Notes: generated from the letters alone by a model not told the origin. A stretch of DNA of 64,000 nt from Pseudomonadota bacterium (GCA_041695325.1 JBGFRC010000001.1:7686-71685), one strand, 5' to 3'; positions 18,520-28,236 are shown, numbered from the stretch's first letter. Numbers and translations are program-made.

Positions 18520-20220
18520 ATGCGCACCTCACAGCTATTACTGCCCACACTCAAGGAAACACCCTCCGACGCCGAAGTCATCAGTCATCAGTTGATGCTG
18601 CGTGCGGGCATGATCCGCAAACTCGCCGCTGGCATCTATAACTGGCTGCCCCTCGGCCTGCGCGTGCTGCGCAAGGTGGAGGCCGTTGTGCGCGAGGAAA
18701 TGAGCCGCGCCGGCGCGCAAGAGCTGCTGATGCCCGCGGTGCAGCCCGCCGAGCTGTGGCAGGAATCCGGGCGCTGGGGGCAATACGGCCCTGAACTGTT
18801 GCGCCTGCAAGACCGTCACCAACGCGACTTCTGCTTCGGCCCGACGCACGAGGAGGTCATCACCGATCTGGTGCGCAACGAAATCCGCAGTTATAAACAA
18901 CTGCCTGCGATCTTTTACCAGATCCAAACCAAATTCCGCGACGAACCGCGCCCGCGGTTCGGCGTGATGCGCGCGCGCGAATTCCTGATGAAGGATGCGT
19001 ATTCATTTCACGCTGATAAAGCCAGCCTGGAAAAAACCTATCAGGTGATGCATGACGTCTATACCCGCATCTTCACCCGTCTTGGGTTAAGATTCCGCGC
19101 CGTGTACGCCGACACCGGCGCCATCGGCGGCACCGGTTCGCAGGAGTTCCACGTGCTCGCCGACTCCGGCGAAGACGCCGTCGCGTTTTGCCCGGATTCG
19201 GACTACGCCGCCAACGTGGAACTAGCCGAGGCCGTCGCGCCCGCGGGCAAGCGCCCTGCCCCACAACAGACGATGCAAATCGTGGACACGCCGGGCAAAC
19301 ACAGCATCGAAGAAGTCAGCGGCTTTTTAAAAATGGATCCCGCCCAGTGTCTGAAGACGCTGCTGGTGCAGGGCAAGGAAGGCGTCGTCGCGCTGGTGTT
19401 GCGCGGCGATCACGAATTGAACACGGTAAAAGCGGCCAAGCTGACGCAGGTTTTCGCCCCGCTGACACTGGCCACCCCGCAGCAGGTTCAGGACGCGGCC
19501 GGCTGCGCGCCGGGATCGGTGGGCCCGGTGGGGCTAAAGATTCCCGTCATCGCCGACCGCGCCGCCGCGCACGCAAGCGACTTTGTGTGCGGCGCAAATC
19601 AGGACGGCAGGCATTTCACCGGCGTCAACTGGAGCCGCGATCTGCCGGAGCCGCTGGTCGCGGACATCCGCAACGTCGTGCAAGGCGACCCTTCCCCCGA
19701 CGGCCAAGGCACGCTGTCCATCGCGCGCGGCATCGAGGTCGGCCACATTTTCCAGCTTGGCGGTAAATACTCCAGCGCCATGGGCGCGAGCTATCTCGAC
19801 GAAAACGGGCAATCGCAAATCATGGAGATGGGCTGCTACGGCATCGGCGTATCGCGCGTGGTGGCCGCCGCCATCGAACAGAACCACGACGCACGCGGTA
19901 TCATCTGGCCTGTGCCCCTTGCGCCGTTTCACGTCGCGCTGCTGCCGATGAACATGCACAAGTCGCCGCGCGTGCAGGAAACGGCGGAGAAACTCTATAC
20001 AGAATTAACACACGCCGGGATTGAGGTGTTATTCGATGATCGCCCCTTGCGCGCGGGCGTGATGTTCGCCGACATGGAGCTGATCGGCATCCCCCATCGC
20101 ATCGTCGTCGGCGAACGCGGCCTCGACGCCGGAACGGTGGAATATCAGAACCGTCGCGACGCGCAAAGCCGGAATGTACCGCTTGCTGAAATCACCGGCC
20201 TTCTGAAAGCGCGCTTATAA
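18520..20220 (+). CDS. proS: proline--tRNA ligase
   Basis: 566-aa class II aaRS with an editing domain and full-length ProRS similarity. Confidence 0.95.
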
Positions 20221-20532
20221 GCCGCTCTCCCTCCAGTCGGCCAGAAACTGCTCCAGGCCGAGGGTAGTGAGCGGGAGCCTGACCGTCACATTGGGCGCAA
20301 TCCTGGCCAGTTCGCGGCCCTGCTTGAGCATGCCTTCATAATCCATCGCAACGACCTCGGCGCTGACCGGGCCTTGCACCATCTCGCAGATCATCGCAAT
20401 CTGCTTATGAAAGCTGATACCGGTTTCCTTGGCTAGCAGCGATGGATTGGTGGTCACACCGTCGGCCATGCCCAACTCCACGGCTTTGCGTATATCCTCA
20501 AGATGTCCCGTGTCTATGGGGTAGCCATCCAA
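20215..20532 (-). pseudogene. internally deleted, start-less copy of the transaldolase/fructose-6-phosphate aldolase gene (paralog of 26240-26890)
   Basis: Its translation matches residues ~5-77 of the intact copy fused directly to the last 16 residues (…VRLPLT|[16 protein letters not shown]). The junction lies at the microhomology cccgctcac. There is no ATG at the 5' end, where the sequence diverges from the intact gene. Confidence 0.8.
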
Positions 20533-20574
20533 ACATCATGCCCAATCTCTGAAGGAGGTCATATGCCGAAGAAC

Positions 20575-20625
20575 CAAGCCTGGCACTGGTTTTCGGGAAA
20601 TTAACGCTCACAACTACCCACACGA
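20575..20625. repeat. 50-bp junction motif, copy 1 (ttcgggaaattaacgctcacaactacccacacgacttccagaagagcc)
   Basis: Near-identical to 26080-26130. Both copies lie between a tal-derived segment and IS630-like remnant sequence. Confidence 0.6.
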
Positions 20626-20673
20626 CTTCCAGAAGAGCCCCAAAATCTATATTCGCGCATTTTTGAGGATCAT

Positions 20674-21327
20674 TCAGCGCGCCGCCGCCCGGGAGAACAA
20701 TCTTCGCCCGAATGCGCCGCCGAATGCGGCGAGCACGGCCGCCGGGCCGAGGTTCCAAATCAGGATCAGCGTGGTCGCGTCCAGGTCATGAAAAAGCGAC
20801 AGCGCCGTTGCGGTCATGGCGGCGACGGCGAGGCCGCCCGTGATCGCGACCGGCGCCGGCGCGAGCAACGCCGCGTGGCGCAGCATGATGAGCAGCGCGA
20901 GCGAGAGCGGCGCGCCAACGAGCACGAGCGTCGCGAAGCAGCGCGCGGTCTCGCCGAGCGACACGCCCTCGGGCCCGATGCTGACCCAGGCGGTGAAACA
21001 GCCGTAGCCGATGGTCGCCACCCATACGAGGAGCCCGGGCGCAGGCAGAAGGAGCCAGCCTCGCGAGCGGTCGGGGAGGCTCAGGAGGAACGCGGCAATC
21101 GCGGCAAGGACGCCGGTCGCGAGCGCCGCGGCGACGCTGAGAACGAATACCGGCTGCTCGAGGCGAAACTCCAGGTCCGGGCGCACTCCGCGCGAGACGG
21201 CCAGCAGCGCGAGGATCAGCGCCGCGAAGAGCAGCCAGCCGGCGGCGCGCACGAGCGGCGGCCGCAGGCGCCGCAGCGGCGCCAGATGCGCGACAAGTGT
21301 CTCGATCAGGTCGGGCGTATTGATCAC
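20674..21327 (-). CDS. DUF1109 (NrsF-family) membrane anti-sigma factor
   Basis: 217 aa, six predicted TM segments, N-terminus INTPDLIETLVAHLAPLRRL, two cysteines in predicted outward-facing loops (GYGCFTAW, ARCF). ATGA-coupled to the upstream ECF sigma gene. Confidence 0.8.
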   Translation of the reverse strand: MINTPDLIETLVAHLAPLRRLRPPLVRAAGWLLFAALILALLAVSRGVRPDLEFRLEQPVFVLSVAAALATGVLAAIAAFLLSLPDRSRGWLLLPAPGLLVWVATIGYGCFTAWVSIGPEGVSLGETARCFATLVLVGAPLSLALLIMLRHAALLAPAPVAITGGLAVAAMTATALSLFHDLDATTLILIWNLGPAAVLAAFGGAFGRRLFSRAAAR

Positions 21328-21947
21328 CGGTCCGTTCGTTTCGTTCCGAGCAGTTTCCGCAGGCGCTTCAACGCGCGATGCGTAGCCACCTTGAGCGCCG
21401 CGACCGACATGCCGCTCGCCGCAGCCGCTTCCTGCAACGACATCTCCTTCAGCTTGAGAAGCTCGATCGCCTGGCGCTGTCCGGCGGGCAGATTCTCGAC
21501 CGCCTCCCGCAGCAGGCGCGCCTCGGAGGCCGCCTCCTGGCAGTTCGCCTCGGGCCCGGCAAAGGTTTCATGCTCGGGTTCGAGCGGCACCTCGCGGGCC
21601 CCCGCGCGTCCGTGCCGGCGCAGCGCATCCGCGATGCGCCGATTGGCGATCGCGACCAGCCACGGGCCGAAGGGGCGGGCAGGGTCGTAGGTATTGCGTA
21701 CTGCATGCACGGTGAGCAGCGTCTCCTGCACCACGTCCTCGACGTCGCTGCGGTTCCGCAGGCGCCGCGCCGCAAGCGAGCGCAGGTAAGGCGTCACCTG
21801 TTCGAGCAGCCGCCGGTAGGCTTCGCGGTCGCCGCCCTGCGCCCGCGCCATGCAGAGCGACCAGTCGAGTTCATGGCCGGCAGGCGCCTCCCCGGCCTTC
21901 CTGATGAGGCTCAGCGCCGGTCCGCGGCCGGGTCGGTTGGATCGCAT
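21324..21947 (-). CDS. ECF-type RNA polymerase sigma-70 factor (SigF-like)
   Basis: Sigma-70 region 2 (DVVQETLLTVHAVRNTYDPARPFGPWLVAIANRR) and region 4 (LPAGQRQAIELLKLKEMSLQEAAAASGMSVAALKVATHRALKRLR). Start ambiguous: 21947 (MRSN...) or 21851 (MARAQ...). Confidence 0.85.
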   Translation of the reverse strand: MRSNRPGRGPALSLIRKAGEAPAGHELDWSLCMARAQGGDREAYRRLLEQVTPYLRSLAARRLRNRSDVEDVVQETLLTVHAVRNTYDPARPFGPWLVAIANRRIADALRRHGRAGAREVPLEPEHETFAGPEANCQEAASEARLLREAVENLPAGQRQAIELLKLKEMSLQEAAAASGMSVAALKVATHRALKRLRKLLGTKRTDR

Positions 21948-22136
21948 GATGGAAATTTTAGCACATGGAGTCGGATCGGGCCGTCGGAAGCGGGGGCCCC
22001 TACCAGGATGTTGATAAATGCCGCATGACACCGTTTTCTTGGCGCAGTGACCGCGCTGTTCTCCTGGGGATGGCATTGTCCCTATGACCTCCCTTAAGGG
22101 GAGTGGTTCGAGGACTTTATCAACACCCTGCTACCT

Positions 22137-22162
22137 GTAACCTTTTGTTGCGCCCCGCCGAA
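22137..22162 (+). promoter_or_regulatory. ECF sigma (SigF-type) promoter GTAACC-N16-CGAA upstream of the DUF2282 precursor gene
   Basis: gtaacc at 22137-22142, exactly 16 nt, then cgaa at 22159-22162, about 47 nt upstream of the ATG at 22209. This matches the published Caulobacter SigF-dependent promoter consensus. Confidence 0.55.
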
Positions 22163-22208
22163 CTTCCTGTCGCGGCCCCGATCCCGGGGCCTTCTACAGG
22201 AGGAAAAC

Positions 22209-22505
22209 ATGGATCAGAAAGGCATTGTCGCGGCGGCGATCGCCGGCCTGTTCGCGCTGGGTGCGGCGACGGGTTCCGCGCTGGCGCAGGACAAGAAGGA
22301 GATGGAAAAGTGCTGGGGCGTGGTAAAGGCCGGCCAGAATGACTGCGGCAGCAACGCGACCGCGCATGCGTGTGCCGGGCAGTCGAATAAGGACTACGAC
22401 CCGAACGACTTCAAGGCGGTGAAAACCGGCACCTGCATCCAGATGGGCGGGAGCCTGAAGCAGGGCGAGCCGGGCGAGCTGGCCAAGAAGCACTTCAAGG
22501 GCTGA
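22209..22505 (+). CDS. DUF2282 bufferin-type precursor peptide (BufA-like), Sec signal peptide
   Basis: Signal peptide [26 protein letters not shown]. Core [26 protein letters not shown]...[10 protein letters not shown] has four Cys in the conserved DUF2282 arrangement. Strong RBS aggagg. Confidence 0.85.
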
Positions 22506-22515
22506 AGAGCGCGGC

Positions 22516-23370
22516 ATGAGCGCAGTCGCGGTTTCAGGCAGCGGCCCGCAGGGACTCGGGCCGGGGATCGGGCTGCGCGCGCCGCACTATCGCGCTTTCC
22601 TCGAGGCGCGCCAGCCTGTTGGCTGGGTCGAGGTCCACAGCGAGAACTACTTCGGGCAGGGCGGCTACCACCGGCACGTGCTCGAACGCGTGCGCGCCGA
22701 TTACGCCGTCAGCCTGCACGGGGTCGGGCTCGGCATCGGCTCCGCGGAGGGCTACCGCGAGCGCCACCTGAGGCGGCTGCGCTCGCTCGCGCGGTGGATC
22801 GAGCCGGTTTTCGTCTCCGAGCACTTGTGCTGGGGGGCGGCGTCCGGCCGGCACTTCAACGACCTGCTGCCGCTCGCCTACGGCCGGGAGGCGCTTGCAC
22901 TAGTGAGCGCGCGCGTCGAGCGCGCGCAGGAACTCCTCGGCCGGCGCCTGCTGATCGAGAACGTCACGGCGTATCTCGAGTTCGCCGGGCAGGAGATGGC
23001 CGAGGCCGAATTCATCGCCGAACTCGCGCACCGCACGGGCTGCGGCGTGCTGCTCGACGTGAACAACCTGTACGTGAATCAGCTTAACCACGGCGGCGAT
23101 GCGCTCGCTGCCCTGCGCACGCTCCCCGCGGGCTGCGTCGAGGAGATCCACCTTGCCGGCCATCTGGTCACCGAGGACTGCGTGATTGACCACCACGGCG
23201 CTCGCGTCGCCGAGCCCGTGTGGCGGCTCTACAAGGCCGCCCTCGAGCGCTTCGGTCCGGTCCCGACGCTGATCGAATGGGATACCGACATCCCGGAGCT
23301 TGCGGTGCTGCTCGATGAGGCCGCGCGCGCCGGCCGGTGCATGGGGGAACGCCTTGGCCTCGCTGCTTGA
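22516..23370 (+). CDS. DUF692 / MNIO-family (multinuclear non-heme iron oxidative) enzyme (BufB-like)
   Basis: 284 aa, TIM-barrel DUF692 signature ...VEVHSENYF..., [14 protein letters not shown]. Immediately follows the precursor gene. Confidence 0.85.
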
Positions 23371-24139
23371 GTTGCAGCGCGGCTTCGGGTCCGCGCTCGC
23401 CGACGCCGCGGGCGCAGCGCGCTCGGCCGCGCTTTTCCGCGGTCCGCCCGAGCGCGCGCTCGCGCGCCTCGCCGTGTATCGCGGCAACGTCTTCGGCAAC
23501 TGTTCGAAAGCGCTCGCCGGCGCGTATCCGATCGTTCGCAAGATCGTGGGCGAGGAATTCTTCGAGGACCTCTCACGCGCCTACTGGCGCTCGCGGCCTT
23601 CGGTGAGCGGCGACCTGAACGAGTACGGCCGCGGCTTCGATGCGTTCCTCGCAGGCTGCGCGCAGGTGCAGGACCTGCCGTATCTGCCGGACGTCGCGCA
23701 CATGGAGTGGCTCGCGCACCGCGCCTACTACGCCGCGGACAGCGCGCGCTTCGATCCCTCGCGCCTTGCGGCGCTGCCGCCGGAGCGCCATCCGGGCCTG
23801 CGCCCGGTGCTCGCCCGCGCCTGCGCGCTGTTCGAGTCGCACTGGCCGCTGGCACGGATCTGGGAGGTACACCAGGACGACTACACGGGCGAGATCAACG
23901 TTGATCTCGGCGCGGGCGGCGAGCGCATACTGGTGCACCGCCCGGCCTGGCGCGCCGTGGTCATCGGGCTCGGCGCCGCGGACCATGCGCTGCTCTGCGC
24001 CATCCGCGACGGCCTAGCGCTGGGGCCAGCGCTCGAGGCGGCGCTCGCCGCCGATCCCGCCTACGGCCCGTCTGCAGCGCTCGCGCGCTGGGTCGGCGCC
24101 GGCGCGATCGTGGCTCTTGCCGCGGGAGAGCCGCGATGA
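23315..24139 (+). CDS. DUF2063 domain protein (BufC-like MNIO partner)
   Basis: N-terminus ...[17 protein letters not shown] typical of DUF2063; overlaps the MNIO gene 3' end. Start approximate (first in-frame ATG). Confidence 0.8.
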
Positions 24140-24594
24140 GGGCGATCGGCGCATGGCTTCCGGCGATCGAGCGCGTGCTCGCCTGGTTGCAGGCGGCCGG
24201 CCATCTGGTCGATCTGGCGATCCGACTCTACGTCGCGAACGTGTTCTTCAAATCGGGCCTGGTCAAGATCGGCAACTGGGACGGCACCCTGTATCTGTTT
24301 CACGAGGAATACCGGGTGCCGCTGCTCCCGCCCGAGGTCGCGGCCTGGCTCGGCACGTTCGGGGAGCTCTTTTTCCCGCCGCTGCTCGCGCTCGGGCTCG
24401 CCGCCCGCTTCGCCGCGCTTTCGCTCTCCGTGTTCAACGTAGTGGCGGTAATCTCCTTCTGGCACGTGCTCAGCACCAACGAGGCGGCGCTGATGTCGCA
24501 CTTTTACTGGGGCTTGCTGCTGCTCGTTCCGCTGTGCCACGGCCCGGGCAAGCTCTCGCTCGATCACTGGATCTGGCGCTGGGTTTCCCGCTAG
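24136..24594 (+). CDS. DoxX family membrane protein
   Basis: 152 aa, four TM helices, DoxX signature; ATGA overlap with the DUF2063 gene. Confidence 0.8.
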   Translation: MRAIGAWLPAIERVLAWLQAAGHLVDLAIRLYVANVFFKSGLVKIGNWDGTLYLFHEEYRVPLLPPEVAAWLGTFGELFFPPLLALGLAARFAALSLSVFNVVAVISFWHVLSTNEAALMSHFYWGLLLLVPLCHGPGKLSLDHWIWRWVSR

Positions 24595-24624
24595 GCACGA
24601 GGAGCGAAGAGTGGACGCTTCGCC

Positions 24625-25740
24625 ATGAACCTGCGCAGCCTTGCGCTGGCGGCGGCGCTCGCGCTCGCCCCGGGTACGGTGCTCGCGCAGAGCGCGGAGG
24701 ACAGGCGCGAGTGGCCGCGGACCGATTTTTCGCGCCGCACGGTGGACCTCGCCGAGATCGAATCGGGCGGGCCGCCCAAGGACGGCATTCCGGCGATCGA
24801 CCGCCCGAGGTTCGTGGGCGCGCGCGCCGCGCGCACCTGGCTCAAGGCGAAAGAGCCGGTGATCGTGCTGCGCCTCGGGGGCGAGGCCCGTGCCTACCCG
24901 CTCCAGATCCTGATGTTCCACGAGATCGTGAACGACATGGTCGGCGGTGTGCCGGTCGCGGTCACGTTCTGCCCGCTATGCAACGCCTCGATCGTGTTCG
25001 AGCGCCGGGTCGGCGAGCGCGTGCTCGACTTCGGCACCACAGGGCGGCTCCGGCTCTCCGACCTCGTGATGTACGACCGGCAGACCGAATCCTGGTGGCA
25101 GCAGTTCACCGGCAAGGGGATCGTCGGGCACTATGCGGGAACTGAACTCGTGCGCTTGCCCTCGGAGATCGTCGCCTTCGAGGACTTCTCCGCCGCGCAT
25201 CCGATGGGGCTGGTGCTCTCGCGCGAGACGGGTCATGCGCGCCCGTACGGGCGCAACCCCTACGCGGGCTACGACCGGATCGACCGGAGCCCGTTGCTGT
25301 TCTCCTCGAGGCTGGACCCGCGGCTGCCGCCGATGGAGCGGGTGCTCTCGGTCACCGTGGGCGCAAAGCACCGGCTCTATCCGCTCACGCTGCTGGAAAA
25401 GCATCCCGTCACGAACCGGGAGCTGGAGGGCCTGTCCTACGCCGTGTTCGCCAAGCGCGGCATGGCCTCGCCGCTCGACCGCCCGGAGATCGAGCAGGGG
25501 CGGCCGATTCCGGCGGCGACCGCGTTCGCGCGGCGTCTCGAGGGCCGGACGCTCGAATTTGTCTCCCGCGGCGGCCGCTATTTCGACACGGCGACCGATT
25601 CCGAGTGGAACCTGCTCGGCGAGGCCGTGGCCGGGCCGCTAAAGGGCAAGCGCCTCGCCCCGCTCGAGAGCGGCGTTCACTTCGCCTTCGCCTGGCTCGC
25701 GTTCAACCCGGAAAGCGAGATCGTGCGCAGCCTGCCTTAG
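24625..25740 (+). CDS. secreted DUF3179 domain-containing protein
   Basis: Signal peptide MNLRSLALAAALALAPGTVLA then ...GIPAIDRPRFV...AYPLQILMFHEIVND...FCPLCNASIVFERR. 30 nt downstream of doxX, same strand. Confidence 0.7.
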   Translation: MNLRSLALAAALALAPGTVLAQSAEDRREWPRTDFSRRTVDLAEIESGGPPKDGIPAIDRPRFVGARAARTWLKAKEPVIVLRLGGEARAYPLQILMFHEIVNDMVGGVPVAVTFCPLCNASIVFERRVGERVLDFGTTGRLRLSDLVMYDRQTESWWQQFTGKGIVGHYAGTELVRLPSEIVAFEDFSAAHPMGLVLSRETGHARPYGRNPYAGYDRIDRSPLLFSSRLDPRLPPMERVLSVTVGAKHRLYPLTLLEKHPVTNRELEGLSYAVFAKRGMASPLDRPEIEQGRPIPAATAFARRLEGRTLEFVSRGGRYFDTATDSEWNLLGEAVAGPLKGKRLAPLESGVHFAFAWLAFNPESEIVRSLP

Positions 25741-25773
25741 TGGTCTGGTTCATAAATTCGGCAACGTATGTAT

Positions 25774-26075
25774 TCACGCCGCAAGAGGCAAAGGCGAGGG
25801 CTCGGCCGCGAACTTTCTGAGCAGCCGCGTGAGATCATCGCGCGTGAATCGCCAGTCAAACGGCGTGGCCATGCTCTCCAAGTGGTCCTGGAAGCGCAGC
25901 AATCGATCTGCGACCTCCGAAAGGCAGGAGAAGTCGTTGGGGGTAAGCGCCTTGCGCTGGACGATGGAGAAATAGATCTCGATCTGGTTGAGCCAATTGG
26001 TGTGAACCGGACCGTGAACGAGGACCAAGTTCGGGTAGGCCTGGGTCAGGCGTCGCACGCAGGGCTGGCCGCCTG
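25774..26075 (-). mobile_element. IS630-family transposase gene remnant (C-terminal ~100 codons only)
   Basis: Translation ...NLVLVHGPVHTNWLNQIEIYFSIVQRKALTPNDFSCLSEVADRLLRFQDHLESMATPFDWRFTRDDL matches the C-terminus of DDE_3/IS630 transposases. The frame is closed by a stop immediately upstream, so the N-terminal ~240 codons are missing. Confidence 0.7.
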
Positions 26076-26079
26076 GCGC

Positions 26080-26130
26080 GTGTTTCCGGGAAATTAACGC
26101 TCAAAACTACCCACACGACTTCCAGAAGAG
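26080..26130. repeat. 50-bp junction motif, copy 2
   Basis: ttccgggaaattaacgctcaaaactacccacacgacttccagaagagcc. It is followed at 26137-26215 by a second copy of the tal 5' region, including ATGAAATTT and then a stop. Confidence 0.6.
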
Positions 26131-26239
26131 CCTAAGAAATTTCATCACCACCTCCTGCCTTCAGGCATGACACCGTCAAGTTTCATGCCCAAAGCCAAAT
26201 GATGTTAGAATTTCGCGTTCGTTATGTATAAAAGCATGC

Positions 26240-26890
26240 TTATAAGCCGCTCTTCTTCCAGTCGGCCAGGAACTGCTCCAGGCCGAGGGTGGTGAGCGGG
26301 TGTTGGTACATCTGCTCCAGCACCTTGAACGGCAGGGTGGTGACGTGCGCGCCGATGCGCGCGGCTTCGATTACGTGGGTGACGTGGCGGATAGAGGCCA
26401 CCAGCACCTGTGTCTTCCATTCGTAATTGCGGTAAATGTCCACGATTTCCCCGATGAGCTTCATGCCGTGCTCGCCGACGTCATCCATTCTGCCCACAAA
26501 GGGTGACACAAACGCCGCTCCCGCCTTGGCGGCGAGGATGGCCTGCGCGGCGGAAAAGCACAAGGTGGCGTTGACCATCACACCCTCCTTGCTCAACACC
26601 GAGCAGGCGCGCATGCCGTCAGGCGTGAGCGGGAGTTTGACCGCGACGTTGGGCGCGATTTTGGCCAGCTCGCGGCCTTGTTTCAACATCCCCTCGTAAT
26701 CCGTTGCCACCACTTCAGCGCTGACCGGGCCTTGCACCATCTCGCAGATCATCGCAATCTGCTTATGAAAGCTGATACCGGTTTCCTTGGCTAGCAGCGA
26801 TGGATTGGTGGTCACACCGTCAGCCATGCCCAGTTCCACGGCCTTGCGAATATCCTCCAGATGTCCCGTGTCTATAAAAAATTTCATCAC
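26240..26890 (-). CDS. fructose-6-phosphate aldolase / transaldolase (TalC/Fsa subfamily)
   Basis: 216 aa MMKFFIDTGHLEDIRKAVELGMADGVTTNPSLL..., the short transaldolase family. Intact paralog of the pseudogene at 20215-20532. Confidence 0.9.
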   Translation of the reverse strand: MMKFFIDTGHLEDIRKAVELGMADGVTTNPSLLAKETGISFHKQIAMICEMVQGPVSAEVVATDYEGMLKQGRELAKIAPNVAVKLPLTPDGMRACSVLSKEGVMVNATLCFSAAQAILAAKAGAAFVSPFVGRMDDVGEHGMKLIGEIVDIYRNYEWKTQVLVASIRHVTHVIEAARIGAHVTTLPFKVLEQMYQHPLTTLGLEQFLADWKKSGL

Positions 26891-26982
26891 CGCCCCCTGC
26901 CTCCAGGCGTTACACAGTCAAGCTTCATGCTTAAAGCCAAATGATGTTAGAATTCCGCGTTTGTCAGCGCCATGGAGTATGC

Positions 26983-28236
<1,254 letters not shown>

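What the first reader, a model, noticed from the sequence alone, without database searches (positions are those of the whole stretch)
20215..26240. Unusual islet boundaries: microhomology-deleted tal copy, duplicated 50-bp motif and duplicated tal 5' region, both next to IS630-like remnants
The left tal copy lacks about 127 internal codons, joined at a 9-bp microhomology (cccgctcac), and has lost its start codon. A 50-bp motif (20575-20625) recurs at 26080-26130. The tal promoter plus its first three codons recurs at 26137-26215, just outside the intact gene. IS630-like coding remnants abut both motif copies (a ~300-bp C-terminal fragment on the right, a heavily deleted trace on the left). This pattern fits a Campbell-type single crossover of a circular element carrying a tal fragment, or IS630-mediated rearrangement followed by decay. 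No integrase is present.
Basis: seen in the sequence. Interest (0 to 1): 0.55.

Follow-up and report, generated by a model that had tools for sequence, protein, structure and literature searches.

The report
Decayed IS scars around bufferin islet
A copper-stress (bufferin) gene islet from a betaproteobacterium sits inside one of two diverged transaldolase gene copies, bounded by broken ends of two insertion sequences: an ordinary, multi-step scar of horizontal transfer at a site where related genomes also take up insertions.

Summary
The sequence observations are largely real, but several details and the interpretation need correcting. The left tal copy (20215-20517) has an in-frame 333-bp (111-codon, not 127) deletion at a 9-bp microhomology. 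Its start is not lost. Codons 1-4 plus the tal-icd intergenic region lie at 26133-26222, so one tal copy is split cleanly by a 5,615-bp block (20518-26132).

The repeated motif is 62 nt (20578-20639 and 26071-26132, 57/62 identical). It is the right terminal end of an ISL3-family insertion sequence, not an IS630 end. The IS630 remnant on the right is real (25741-26070, intact end plus TA). The claimed left "trace" is not supported statistically.

The islet is a complete bufferin cluster (NrsF, ECF sigma, BufA1, MNIO, DUF2063, DoxX, DUF3179), 85-94% identical to a contig whose closest named homologues are betaproteobacterial.

The two tal copies are not a recent duplicate. They differ at 15.6% of sites outside a 104-nt identical gene-conversion tract.

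Three related genomes have the empty proS/tal site. Two other lineages (three contigs) carry different insertions there.

Best reading: heterologous tal duplication, IS-borne islet insertion into the redundant copy, then decay. This is an ordinary kind of structure, and the order of steps is unresolved.

The parts
18520..20220 (+). proS. Its stop overlaps the tal_L stop in the palindrome TTATAA, the native convergent arrangement seen in relatives.
   Evidence: ORF and Pfam context. The same overlap occurs in the empty-site relatives L007, L008 and L018.
20215..20517 (-). tal_L, 3' portion of a split tal/fsa pseudogene: codon 5 to the stop, lacking 111 internal codons.
   Evidence: TAL_FSA E=4.6e-17. 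Repeat families D1 and D3. Reconstruction.
20267..20275 (.). Deletion joint in tal_L. A single copy of the 9-bp GTGAGCGGG remains; it occurs twice in tal_R (26292-26300, 26625-26633), 333 bp apart.
20360..20463 (.). 104-nt tract 100% identical to tal_R 26718-26821. This is a gene-conversion or crossover tract.
   Evidence: 0/104 differences against 33/211 outside the tract. Relatives differ at 9-16/104, and four sites are shared-derived in the two window copies.
20518..20577 (+). 60 nt of unknown origin. It carries a strong Shine-Dalgarno (GAAGGAGG) and an ATG at 20564, opening a 13-codon ORF that runs into the motif.
   Evidence: No significant match in the window, the fetched loci, plasmids, or the IS630/ISL3 elements.
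20578..20639 (+). ISL3-family right-end fragment, left copy. The terminal inverted repeat is 20614-20639 and the element terminus is at 20639.
20640..20672 (.). 33-nt spacer between the ISL3 terminus and the nrsF stop. It is not homologous to the L013 context.
20673..25740 (.). Bufferin islet: nrsF 20674-21327(-), ECF sigma 21324-21947(-), bufA1/DUF2282 22209-22505(+), MNIO/DUF692 22516-23370(+), DUF2063 23354-24139(+), DoxX 24136-24594(+), DUF3179 24625-25740(+). GC is 0.60-0.75, mostly about 0.70, against 0.55-0.62 in the adjacent flanks.
   Evidence: Pfam. GC profile. 88.6%, 94.5% and 85.5% nt identity to L013, ending at the outermost stop codons.
25741..26070 (-). IS630-family remnant: intact right terminal repeat at 25741 next to the TA of the DUF3179 stop, plus the C-terminal ~100 codons of the transposase. 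The 5' ~940 nt are missing.
26071..26132 (+). ISL3-family right-end fragment, right copy. Its inner edge is fused to the IS630 interior. Its terminus (26132) abuts tal_L codon 5.
26133..26222 (-). tal_L 5' piece (codons 1-4 plus 1 nt, 26133-26145) and the tal-icd intergenic region of the left unit (IG_L).
   Evidence: 78/90 identical to 26875-26964. Exact rejoining with 20517.
26223..26239 (.). Joint between the two tal units. TGTATAA may be icd codons 1-3. It is followed by AAAGCATGC, a 9-nt copy of the proS 3' end (7/9 identical to 20206-20214).
   Evidence: The icd assignment is weak (a 7-nt match).
26240..26887 (-). tal_R, the intact 215-aa tal/fsa gene.
   Evidence: TAL_FSA E=1.8e-62. 90-94% aa identity to relatives.
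26888..28236 (+). Native tal-icd intergenic region (IG_R) and icd.

Best explanation
The region is a decayed scar of several separate recombination events at the proS|tal junction. No active or unitary mobile element remains.

(A) tal duplication. The genome carries two diverged tal units in tandem. The left unit is proS-tal_L-IG_L. The right unit is a 9-nt proS tail followed by tal_R-IG_R-icd. They are joined by an illegitimate joint at 26223-26231. Because the copies are as different from each other as from other species, the second unit most likely came from a related lineage. The likely route is one-sided homologous recombination plus an illegitimate end join (HFIR-like). A very old in-situ duplication is the alternative.

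(B) Islet insertion. A 5.6-kb block was inserted into the redundant, proS-proximal copy at codon 5. The block carries a complete SigF/NrsF-regulated bufferin cluster plus DUF3179, probably of betaproteobacterial origin. The DNA was carried by insertion sequences. An ISL3-family element end sits exactly at the tal junction, and a second copy in the same orientation lies 33 nt beyond nrsF. An IS630 had inserted at the TA of the DUF3179 stop codon. Two direct ISL3 copies flanking cargo are what an ISL3-mediated cointegrate or circle (single crossover through ISL3 homology), or a pseudo-compound transposon, would leave.

(C) Decay. Deletions removed both ISL3 bodies, the 5' two-thirds of IS630 and any backbone. 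A 333-bp slippage deletion at a 9-bp repeat shortened tal_L. A 104-nt gene-conversion tract homogenised part of the two tal copies.

Shown: the anatomy, the identities of the pieces, the foreign origin of the islet, the clean split of tal_L, the mosaic tal divergence, and the empty and alternatively filled sites in relatives.

Inferred: the order of A and B, the HFIR-like route, the cointegrate route, and how the left junction (20517|20518) arose.
For: Anatomy of the repeats and the clean split of tal_L.

Motif is an ISL3 end. A 25-mer from the motif hits only two metagenome contigs. There it ends an element encoding a DDE_Tnp_ISL3 transposase, with a matching inverted repeat at the other end. 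The two contigs are 241/249 identical up to the end and unrelated beyond it (16/60). In the window the two motif copies also stop being similar exactly at that terminus.

IS630 remnant.

Foreign islet. GC is about 0.70 against about 0.60. The closest DUF3179 homologues that carry a source name are Betaproteobacteria/Burkholderiales MAGs. The same gene order occurs in L013, at 85-94% nt identity, ending precisely at the terminal stop codons. The gene set equals buf1ABCD plus sigF/nrsF of PMC11626156.

tal copies are heterologous and mosaic. 33/211 differences outside the tract, against 23-34/211 to other species. 23 synonymous against 7 non-synonymous codon differences. Segment divergences are 10.6%, 0%, 26% and 6.6%.

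Hotspot. Empty proS/tal overlap in L007, L008 and L018. A different 5-kb insertion in L005/L006, with the start of the same insertion downstream of tal in L026. A 2.9-kb insertion in L017.

The same architecture is present in a second assembly with 1 mismatch in 20.6 kb.
Against: No 8-bp target duplication typical of ISL3 flanks the block, and no ISL3 left end or transposase exists in the window.

The left junction is 'clean': tal_L loses and gains nothing. Under my model this needs a small repair loss of about 7 nt of the duplicated target plus the IS body. That is a mild coincidence.

Both ISL3 fragments start being alike at the same internal position. This is trivially explained only if the 60 nt to the left is also ISL3 tail, which could not be tested because no close full-length relative was found.

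Flank identities to the nearest species (86.0%, 88.5%, 85.7%) show no clear foreign segment, so the xenologous origin of one tal unit is inferred from divergence alone.

IG_L/IG_R and the tal 3' ends are closer to each other than to relatives. That fits shared ancestry or extra conversion events.
Confidence: 0.55

Rival explanations
1. One-step Campbell-type integration. A 6.4-kb circle excised from a related genome integrated by a single crossover inside tal. The circle ran from the 9-nt proS tail through tal interrupted at codon 5 by the islet, then the intergenic region and icd codons 1-3. This event would create both tal copies at once.
For: It is topologically consistent with the observed order. 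The single 104-nt identical tract, flanked by diverged sequence on both sides, is what a crossover-associated conversion tract would look like. No integrase is needed.
Against: It requires a non-replicating circle made of an arbitrary chromosomal segment whose tal was already disrupted in the donor. It also requires transfer of that circle, and natural transformation linearises DNA. It does not explain the ISL3/IS630 junctions, which must pre-date the event. The low L-R divergence in the tal 3' end (4/61) and the intergenic region (11/77) is not predicted if every segment pair is native versus foreign.
Confidence: 0.15
2. Ancient in-situ tandem duplication of the tal unit in this lineage, with both copies kept functional for a long time. 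Much later the islet inserted into one copy.
For: The joint (possible icd start | proS tail) is what an unequal or illegitimate sister-strand exchange gives. IG_L/IG_R (86%) and the tal 3' ends (93%) are more alike than either is to relatives. The tal_L branch shows mostly synonymous change.
Against: L-R divergence outside the tract (15.6%, and 26% in codons 58-85) is at least as large as the divergence to other species. The duplication would therefore be as old as the species radiation. Yet L007, L008 and L018 have a single tal at an undisturbed proS/tal overlap. Tandem duplicates of identical sequence are unstable, which makes long retention without selection unlikely (general knowledge).
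Confidence: 0.2
3. IS630-mediated composite transposition. Two IS630 copies bracket the islet, insert at a TA in tal, and then decay.
For: The split site is TCTA|TAAG, and the right flank begins with TA. An IS630 remnant is present. The left 60 nt begins after TAT, and has an SD plus ATGCCGAAG that loosely resembles IS630 starts.
Against: The sequence abutting tal on the right is an ISL3 terminus, not an IS630 end. The left 60 nt has no significant similarity to IS630. The intact end of the IS630 remnant faces inward, next to DUF3179. The left flank reads TG, not TA.
Confidence: 0.04
4. Assembly chimera. Contigs of a gammaproteobacterium and a co-occurring betaproteobacterium were joined through short repeats.
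For: The sequence comes from a metagenome. A betaproteobacterial-like contig with the same operon comes from the sister sample. Repeats of 62 and 104 nt exist.
Against: Two assemblies give the same structure. The islet is only 85-94% identical to that contig. The two halves of tal_L flank the block in register, which a chimera would not produce. Exact repeat stretches are at most 28 nt in the motif.
Confidence: 0.03

Closest known systems
IS-flanked (pseudo-)compound transposons and IS-mediated cointegrate scars, with direct IS copies flanking cargo (e.g. the IS26/IS1216-type structures of PMC13055272 and PMC12561309)
   Same: Two copies of the same IS end in direct orientation bracket a cargo block. 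No integrase is present. Formation by a single crossover or a translocatable circle is plausible.
   Different: Only 62-nt right-end stubs survive. There is no transposase, no left end and no target duplication. The IS belongs to the ISL3 family, for which I know of no described pseudo-compound behaviour (from memory, not tested). The structure is no longer mobile.
Homology-facilitated illegitimate recombination (one homologous anchor plus one microhomology joint; PMC3240628 abstract)
   Same: A diverged homologous segment (the tal unit) is joined on one side by an illegitimate joint with 2-3 nt of possible microhomology. On the other side it merges into collinear sequence.
   Different: The outcome here is a duplication rather than a replacement or deletion. 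The homologous crossover point could not be located. Competence of this organism is unknown.
Campbell-type insertion-duplication
   Same: Two direct copies of the target gene arise, with a tract of identity that could mark the crossover.
   Different: Almost nothing lies between the copies. The cargo sits inside one copy. No replicon or vector backbone is present.
Bufferin (buf1) biosynthetic gene cluster of Caulobacter vibrioides (PMC11626156)
   Same: BufA1/DUF2282 precursor, MNIO (DUF692), DUF2063 partner and DoxX, with adjacent ECF sigma (SigF-like) and NrsF anti-sigma genes.
   Different: An extra DUF3179 gene sits at the end. The cluster is present here as a transferred 5-kb islet in a gammaproteobacterial MAG. 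Function was not tested.
Integrase-borne genomic islands inserted at the 3' ends of genes, with att direct repeats
   Same: Direct repeats at the borders, higher GC, and insertion next to a housekeeping gene's end.
   Different: There is no integrase. The repeats are IS termini, not a duplicated target gene end.

Membership tests
ISL3-family insertion sequence (the 62-nt motif) | Terminal inverted repeat shared with an element that encodes a DDE_Tnp_ISL3 transposase | tested here: met
   29-30 nt are identical to the right end of the L003/L004 element. That element has a matching left inverted repeat, and its transposase hits PF01610 at E=3.6e-68.
ISL3-family insertion sequence (the 62-nt motif) | Transposase gene and second (left) inverted repeat present | tested here: not met
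   tblastn and a fuzzy inverted-repeat search (up to 7 mismatches) of the 64-kb window found only the two right-end stubs.
ISL3-family insertion sequence (the 62-nt motif) | 8-bp target-site duplication | tested here: not met
   TAAGAAAT and CCAAAATC, the 8 nt next to each terminus, have no second copy in the same orientation anywhere in 15-32 kb; CCAAAATC has one reverse-complement match, at 26657 inside tal_R.
IS630 family (right remnant) | DDE_3-type transposase homology | tested here: met
   The C-terminal ~100 aa are 63% identical to an annotated IS630 transposase and 74-86% identical to PF13358 proteins. Pfam itself did not hit the 94-aa fragment.
IS630 family (right remnant) | Terminal inverted repeat flanked by a TA target | tested here: met
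   The terminal repeat at 25741 is 29/31 identical to the L015 right end and is preceded by TA. The other end is absent.
IS630 family (claimed left trace, 20518-20577) | Significant similarity to an IS630 element | tested here: not met
   Local alignment scores of 22-25 equal the shuffled mean of about 24.5. No plasmid hits.
Campbell-type integration via tal | Integrated DNA lies between two direct copies of the homologous segment | tested here: not met
   The islet lies inside tal_L at codon 5. Only IG_L plus a ~17-nt joint separates the copies.
Campbell-type integration via tal | Both copies are reciprocal hybrids of donor and recipient alleles | not testable with these tools
   No donor or pre-integration allele was found. 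Only the 104-nt identical tract is compatible.
Integrase-mediated genomic island | Tyrosine or serine recombinase gene at a border | tested here: not met
   All ORFs between 20.6 and 26.1 kb are assigned to other families.
Bufferin BGC (buf1-type) | DUF2282 precursor, MNIO, DUF2063 and DoxX in one operon, with a neighbouring ECF sigma/NrsF pair | tested here: met
   Pfam E-values run from 1.6e-21 to 9e-102. The operon definition comes from PMC11626156. Chemistry and copper phenotype were not tested.
Microhomology-mediated (slippage) deletion | Short direct repeat present twice in the intact copy and once at the joint | tested here: met
   GTGAGCGGG at 26292 and 26625 in tal_R, and once at 20267 in tal_L, 333 bp apart.
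Gene conversion between paralogues | Identity tract far longer than background divergence allows, not explained by conservation | tested here: met
   0/104 differences against 33/211 outside the tract. Relatives differ at 9-16/104 in the same tract. From these counts the chance of such a run is about 3e-5 per position (my calculation).

The most novel reading that the evidence does not exclude
The overlapping convergent stop codons of proS and tal form a clade-wide loading site. Cargo would be captured repeatedly by recombination anchored in tal (one homologous end, one illegitimate end), leaving a duplicated tal piece each time. The footprints would be a whole diverged tal here and a 24-26-nt tal 3' end in L005. 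On this reading the intact tal_R is a 'rescue' allele imported from a sister species after the islet had destroyed the resident tal.
Probability: 0.12. Interest if true: 0.45.

Novelty: new member of a known kind. Interest (0 to 1): 0.25.

Why it matters
The region documents transfer of a complete bufferin (copper-stress RiPP) cluster, probably from a betaproteobacterium, into an uncultured gammaproteobacterium. The betaproteobacterial-like relative comes from a JGI metagenome with an adjacent project code, which I take to be the same study. It also shows how such cargo can settle with little evident cost, by landing in a redundant gene copy at a permissive junction between convergent core genes.

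It is also a useful caution for annotation. Short direct repeats at island borders can be IS termini from a family other than the transposase remnant lying beside them. No new mechanism is required to explain the structure.

Tried and rejected
- IS630 terminus. I tested whether the motif is an IS630 end. It is absent from the complete IS630 relatives L015 and L001. Rejected.
- Common intergenic repeat. The window holds only two copies. The species-representative genome set gave 0 hits, the metagenome set gave two contigs that both carry the ISL3 element, and viral contigs gave 0. Rejected.
- Origin of the 60 nt at 20518-20577. I searched the window, all loci, plasmids and viral contigs, and aligned it to IS630 and ISL3 elements with shuffle controls. 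Nothing was found. A 13-nt match to L004 was judged to be chance (E=0.09).
- Target-site duplications for either ISL3 stub. None found.
- A second tal start downstream of the intact tal in L005. The match scored within the shuffled range. Rejected.
- A donor for tal_L among 120 tal homologues. None is closer to tal_L than to tal_R.
- A foreign-segment signal in flank identity against L017, L018, L005 and L007. No clear step.
- Closer islet relatives through 90% protein clusters. None beyond L013.
- Promoter and terminator scans of both borders. Uninformative.
- A 4-nt CCAA on both sides of the left motif copy could be a remnant of a target duplication. I regard this as post hoc and unproven.

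Full report
LAYOUT. On the + strand the region reads as follows:
- proS, 18520-20220
- tal_L 3' portion, 20215-20517, minus strand
- 60 nt of unknown origin, 20518-20577
- a 62-nt motif, 20578-20639
- a 33-nt spacer
- a seven-gene islet, 20673-25740
- an IS630 remnant, 25741-26070, minus strand
- the 62-nt motif again, 26071-26132
- tal codons 1-4 plus the tal-icd intergenic region, 26133-26222
- a short joint, 26223-26239
- intact tal_R, 26240-26887, minus strand
- the native intergenic region and icd

A second assembly (JGI contig L002) carries the same 20.6 kb with one mismatch. The architecture is therefore not a one-off assembly accident.

CHECK OF THE OBSERVATION. The two blocks of tal_L match tal_R with offsets of 6025 and 6358. 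The gap is 333 bp, which is 111 codons and in frame, not about 127. GTGAGCGGG (CCCGCTCAC on the coding strand, encoding P-L-T both times) occurs at 26292 and 26625 in tal_R and once at the joint in tal_L. This is a textbook microhomology deletion.

The motif is 62 nt long and 57/62 identical, with the outer 28 nt identical. A 45-nt core has two hits in the window against none expected.

The 26133-26222 segment matches 26875-26964 at 78/90.

The key correction concerns the start codon. The segment at 26133-26222 is not an extra copy of the tal 5' end lying beside the intact gene. It is the missing head of tal_L. Joining 26145..26133 to 20517.. gives ATGAAATTTCTTA|TAGACACGGG, in frame, with at most one T shared. 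One tal copy has therefore been split between codons 4 and 5 by a 5,615-bp block, with no loss of target sequence. There is also no 8-bp or TA duplication.

WHAT THE MOTIF IS. A 25-mer from its outer part has no hit in 185,579 species-representative genomes. It has two hits in JGI metagenome contigs. In both contigs it closes an element that encodes a DDE_Tnp_ISL3 transposase (E=3.6e-68) and carries a matching inverted repeat at the other end (TCTTCGTGGTATCGTGTGGGTGG against TCTTCTGGAAGTCGTGTGGGTAG). The two contigs are 241/249 identical up to the motif end and unrelated 2 nt beyond it (16/60).

In the window the two copies likewise stop resembling each other exactly at that terminus, at 20639 and 26132. 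The motif is therefore the right end of an ISL3-family insertion sequence. The window holds no ISL3 transposase, no left end and no further copy.

THE IS630 REMNANT. The 94-aa ORF at 25774-26058 is 63% identical to an annotated IS630-family transposase (E=5e-28). It is up to 86% identical to metagenomic DDE_3 proteins. Against a complete relative (L015), DNA homology runs from 26072 down to 25741. Its terminal repeat is 29/31 identical and is preceded by TA, the TA of the DUF3179 stop codon.

The IS630 right end is thus intact and faces the islet. Its 5' ~940 nt are gone. The break is fused directly to the inner edge of the ISL3 stub.

It has a strong SD and ATGCCGAAG, but scores 22-25 against IS630 and ISL3 elements where shuffles average about 24.5. 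It has no match anywhere else I could search. Its origin is unknown.

THE ISLET. Pfam assigns NrsF, an ECF sigma factor, DUF2282/BufA1, MNIO (MbnB_TglH_ChrH, 9e-102), DUF2063, DoxX and DUF3179. This is the buf1ABCD operon with its SigF/NrsF regulators, described for Caulobacter as a copper-binding RiPP system (PMC11626156), plus DUF3179.

GC is about 0.70 against about 0.60 in the flanks. The closest DUF3179 homologues that carry a source name are Betaproteobacteria/Burkholderiales MAGs. A 101-kb contig from the sister JGI sample (L013) has the same gene order. Identity to it is 88.6% over nrsF-sigma, 94.5% over the buf operon and 85.5% over DUF3179. Homology stops exactly at the two outermost stop codons.

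The host is a gammaproteobacterial MAG lineage. The islet is therefore horizontally acquired, probably from a betaproteobacterium. Its borders are IS-made.

THE TWO tal COPIES. Outside one 104-nt tract (20360-20463 = 26718-26821) the copies differ at 33 of 211 sites (15.6%). That is as much as either differs from the tal of four related species (23-34/211). Inside the tract they are identical, while those relatives differ at 9-11/104 (9-16/104 across the seven relatives), and four sites are shared-derived. The tract is therefore a conversion or crossover tract, not a conserved stretch.

Codon differences are 23 synonymous against 7 non-synonymous. Five of the non-synonymous changes (F4L, K76R, K84R, K211R, K212E) are unique to tal_L. 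So tal_L evolved as a working gene for most of its separate history and died recently.

Divergence is mosaic along the gene: 10.6% (codons 1-22), 0% (the tract), 26% (codons 58-85) and 6.6% (the last 20 codons). The intergenic copies are 86% alike, closer than either is to relatives (68-77%). A recent in-situ duplication is excluded. Beyond that, the history cannot be resolved with the genomes available.

The joint between the units retains 9 nt of the proS 3' end next to tal_R (7/9 identical) and possibly icd codons 1-3 next to IG_L.

RELATIVES. Three related genomes (L007, L008, L018) have the undisturbed arrangement icd-tal-proS, with overlapping stops. L005 and L006 carry a different 5-kb insertion (FecR-like and TPR genes) at the same junction, and L026 carries the start of the same insertion downstream of tal. 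In L005 the insertion is bounded by a 24-26-nt repeat of the tal 3' end next to proS, and the intact tal is followed by a proS-like tail. L017, the nearest species (tal 94% aa), carries a 2.9-kb insertion encoding a 681-aa protein, and its proS C-terminus is rewritten.

The proS|tal junction is thus a recurrent insertion site in this clade. Because the two genes overlap at their stops, only insertions that duplicate or replace gene ends leave both genes intact. That may be why duplicated ends are seen.

MECHANISM. My best reading has three layers.

First, a second, diverged tal unit was added in tandem. The likely route is one homologous crossover on one side and an illegitimate joint at 26223-26231 on the other. 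This is the HFIR pattern (PMC3240628). An old unequal exchange is the alternative.

Second, the islet arrived on IS-bounded DNA and ended up in the proS-proximal copy. Disruption of that copy costs nothing while tal_R is intact. Two ISL3 right ends in direct orientation around the 33 nt, the islet and IS630 are what a single crossover between a resident ISL3 and an ISL3 on an incoming circle or plasmid would leave. A pseudo-compound transposon would leave the same. The large deletion from the IS630 interior to 62 nt before the ISL3 end would then have removed the backbone.

Third, decay followed: loss of both ISL3 bodies, the 333-bp slippage deletion, and the conversion tract.

Two weak points remain. 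No target duplication is present. The left junction is clean, which under this model needs an imprecise repair that removed the IS left end plus about 7 nt of duplicated target.

The equal inner boundary of the two stubs needs no special explanation if the left 60 nt is also ISL3 tail, because the repeat length is set by the right copy's fusion to IS630. I could not verify this.

RIVALS.
It then explains the identity tract elegantly, but it needs an implausible intermediate.
- IS630-mediated transposition is contradicted by the ISL3 terminus at the tal junction.
- An integrase-type island is excluded by the gene content.
- A chimeric assembly is unlikely, given the in-register tal halves and the two concordant assemblies.

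VERDICT. The finding is a real and well-observed mosaic, but an ordinary one: IS debris and a pseudogene around a horizontally acquired, already-described type of gene cluster, at a local insertion hotspot. The interpretation needs correcting on three points. The repeat is ISL3, not IS630. tal_L is split rather than start-less. The tal copies are heterologous. The order of events remains open.

Noticed in passing
L005 8649-13696 (also L006; start of the same insertion in L026): A related gammaproteobacterial MAG has a different ~5-kb insertion (FecR-like gene, two TPR proteins, two proteins with no Pfam hit) at the same proS|tal junction. It is bounded by a 24-26-nt direct repeat of the tal 3' end next to proS. 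The intact tal is followed by ~16 nt resembling a proS 3' end from another lineage.
   Followed up: partly
L017 7649-10508: The closest species (tal 94% aa) has a 2.9-kb insertion between tal and proS. It encodes a 681-aa protein with a GGGTGSG tubulin/FtsZ-like signature (Pfam Tubulin E=0.004, below the family cut-off). The last ~4 codons of proS are replaced by new sequence.
   Followed up: partly
L013 4821-10116: The betaproteobacterial-like counterpart of the islet has an extra 118-aa ORF (no Pfam hit) between DoxX and DUF3179. Identity to the window is uneven: 94.5% in the buf operon against 85-89% in nrsF-sigma and DUF3179. This suggests the islet itself is a recombinant mosaic.
   Followed up: no
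window 20552-20605: A strong Shine-Dalgarno (GAAGGAGG) and ATG open a 13-codon ORF (MPKNQAWHWFSGN) that runs from the unknown 60 nt into the ISL3 stub. It looks like the orphaned start of a truncated gene.
   Followed up: partly
L004 2099-2321 (and L003): The ISL3-family element has an unusually long (~225 nt) GC-rich non-coding tail between the transposase stop and the right inverted repeat, with internal inverted repeats (GTCAAGGA...TCCTTGAC). Only the terminal ~30 nt and a CGCGCCAGG motif are shared with the window's stubs.
   Followed up: no
L015 996-2141; L001 1121-2294: In the close relatives examined (L015, L001) this IS630 subgroup's transposase is split into an HTH ORF and a DDE ORF, and most database homologues are short (about 84-170 aa). 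This may reflect programmed frameshifting or widespread decay.
   Followed up: no
window 20640-20647 and 20574-20577: CCAA occurs immediately on both sides of the left ISL3 stub (..GAACCAA|stub|CCAAAATC..). It could be the remnant of an 8-bp target duplication partly removed by the internal deletion, or it could be chance (about 1 in 200).
   Followed up: partly
L016 1541-3666: A 79%-identical IS630 C-terminal fragment in an ENA contig sits beside two consecutive tyrosine-recombinase genes. This has no evident connection to the window.
   Followed up: no
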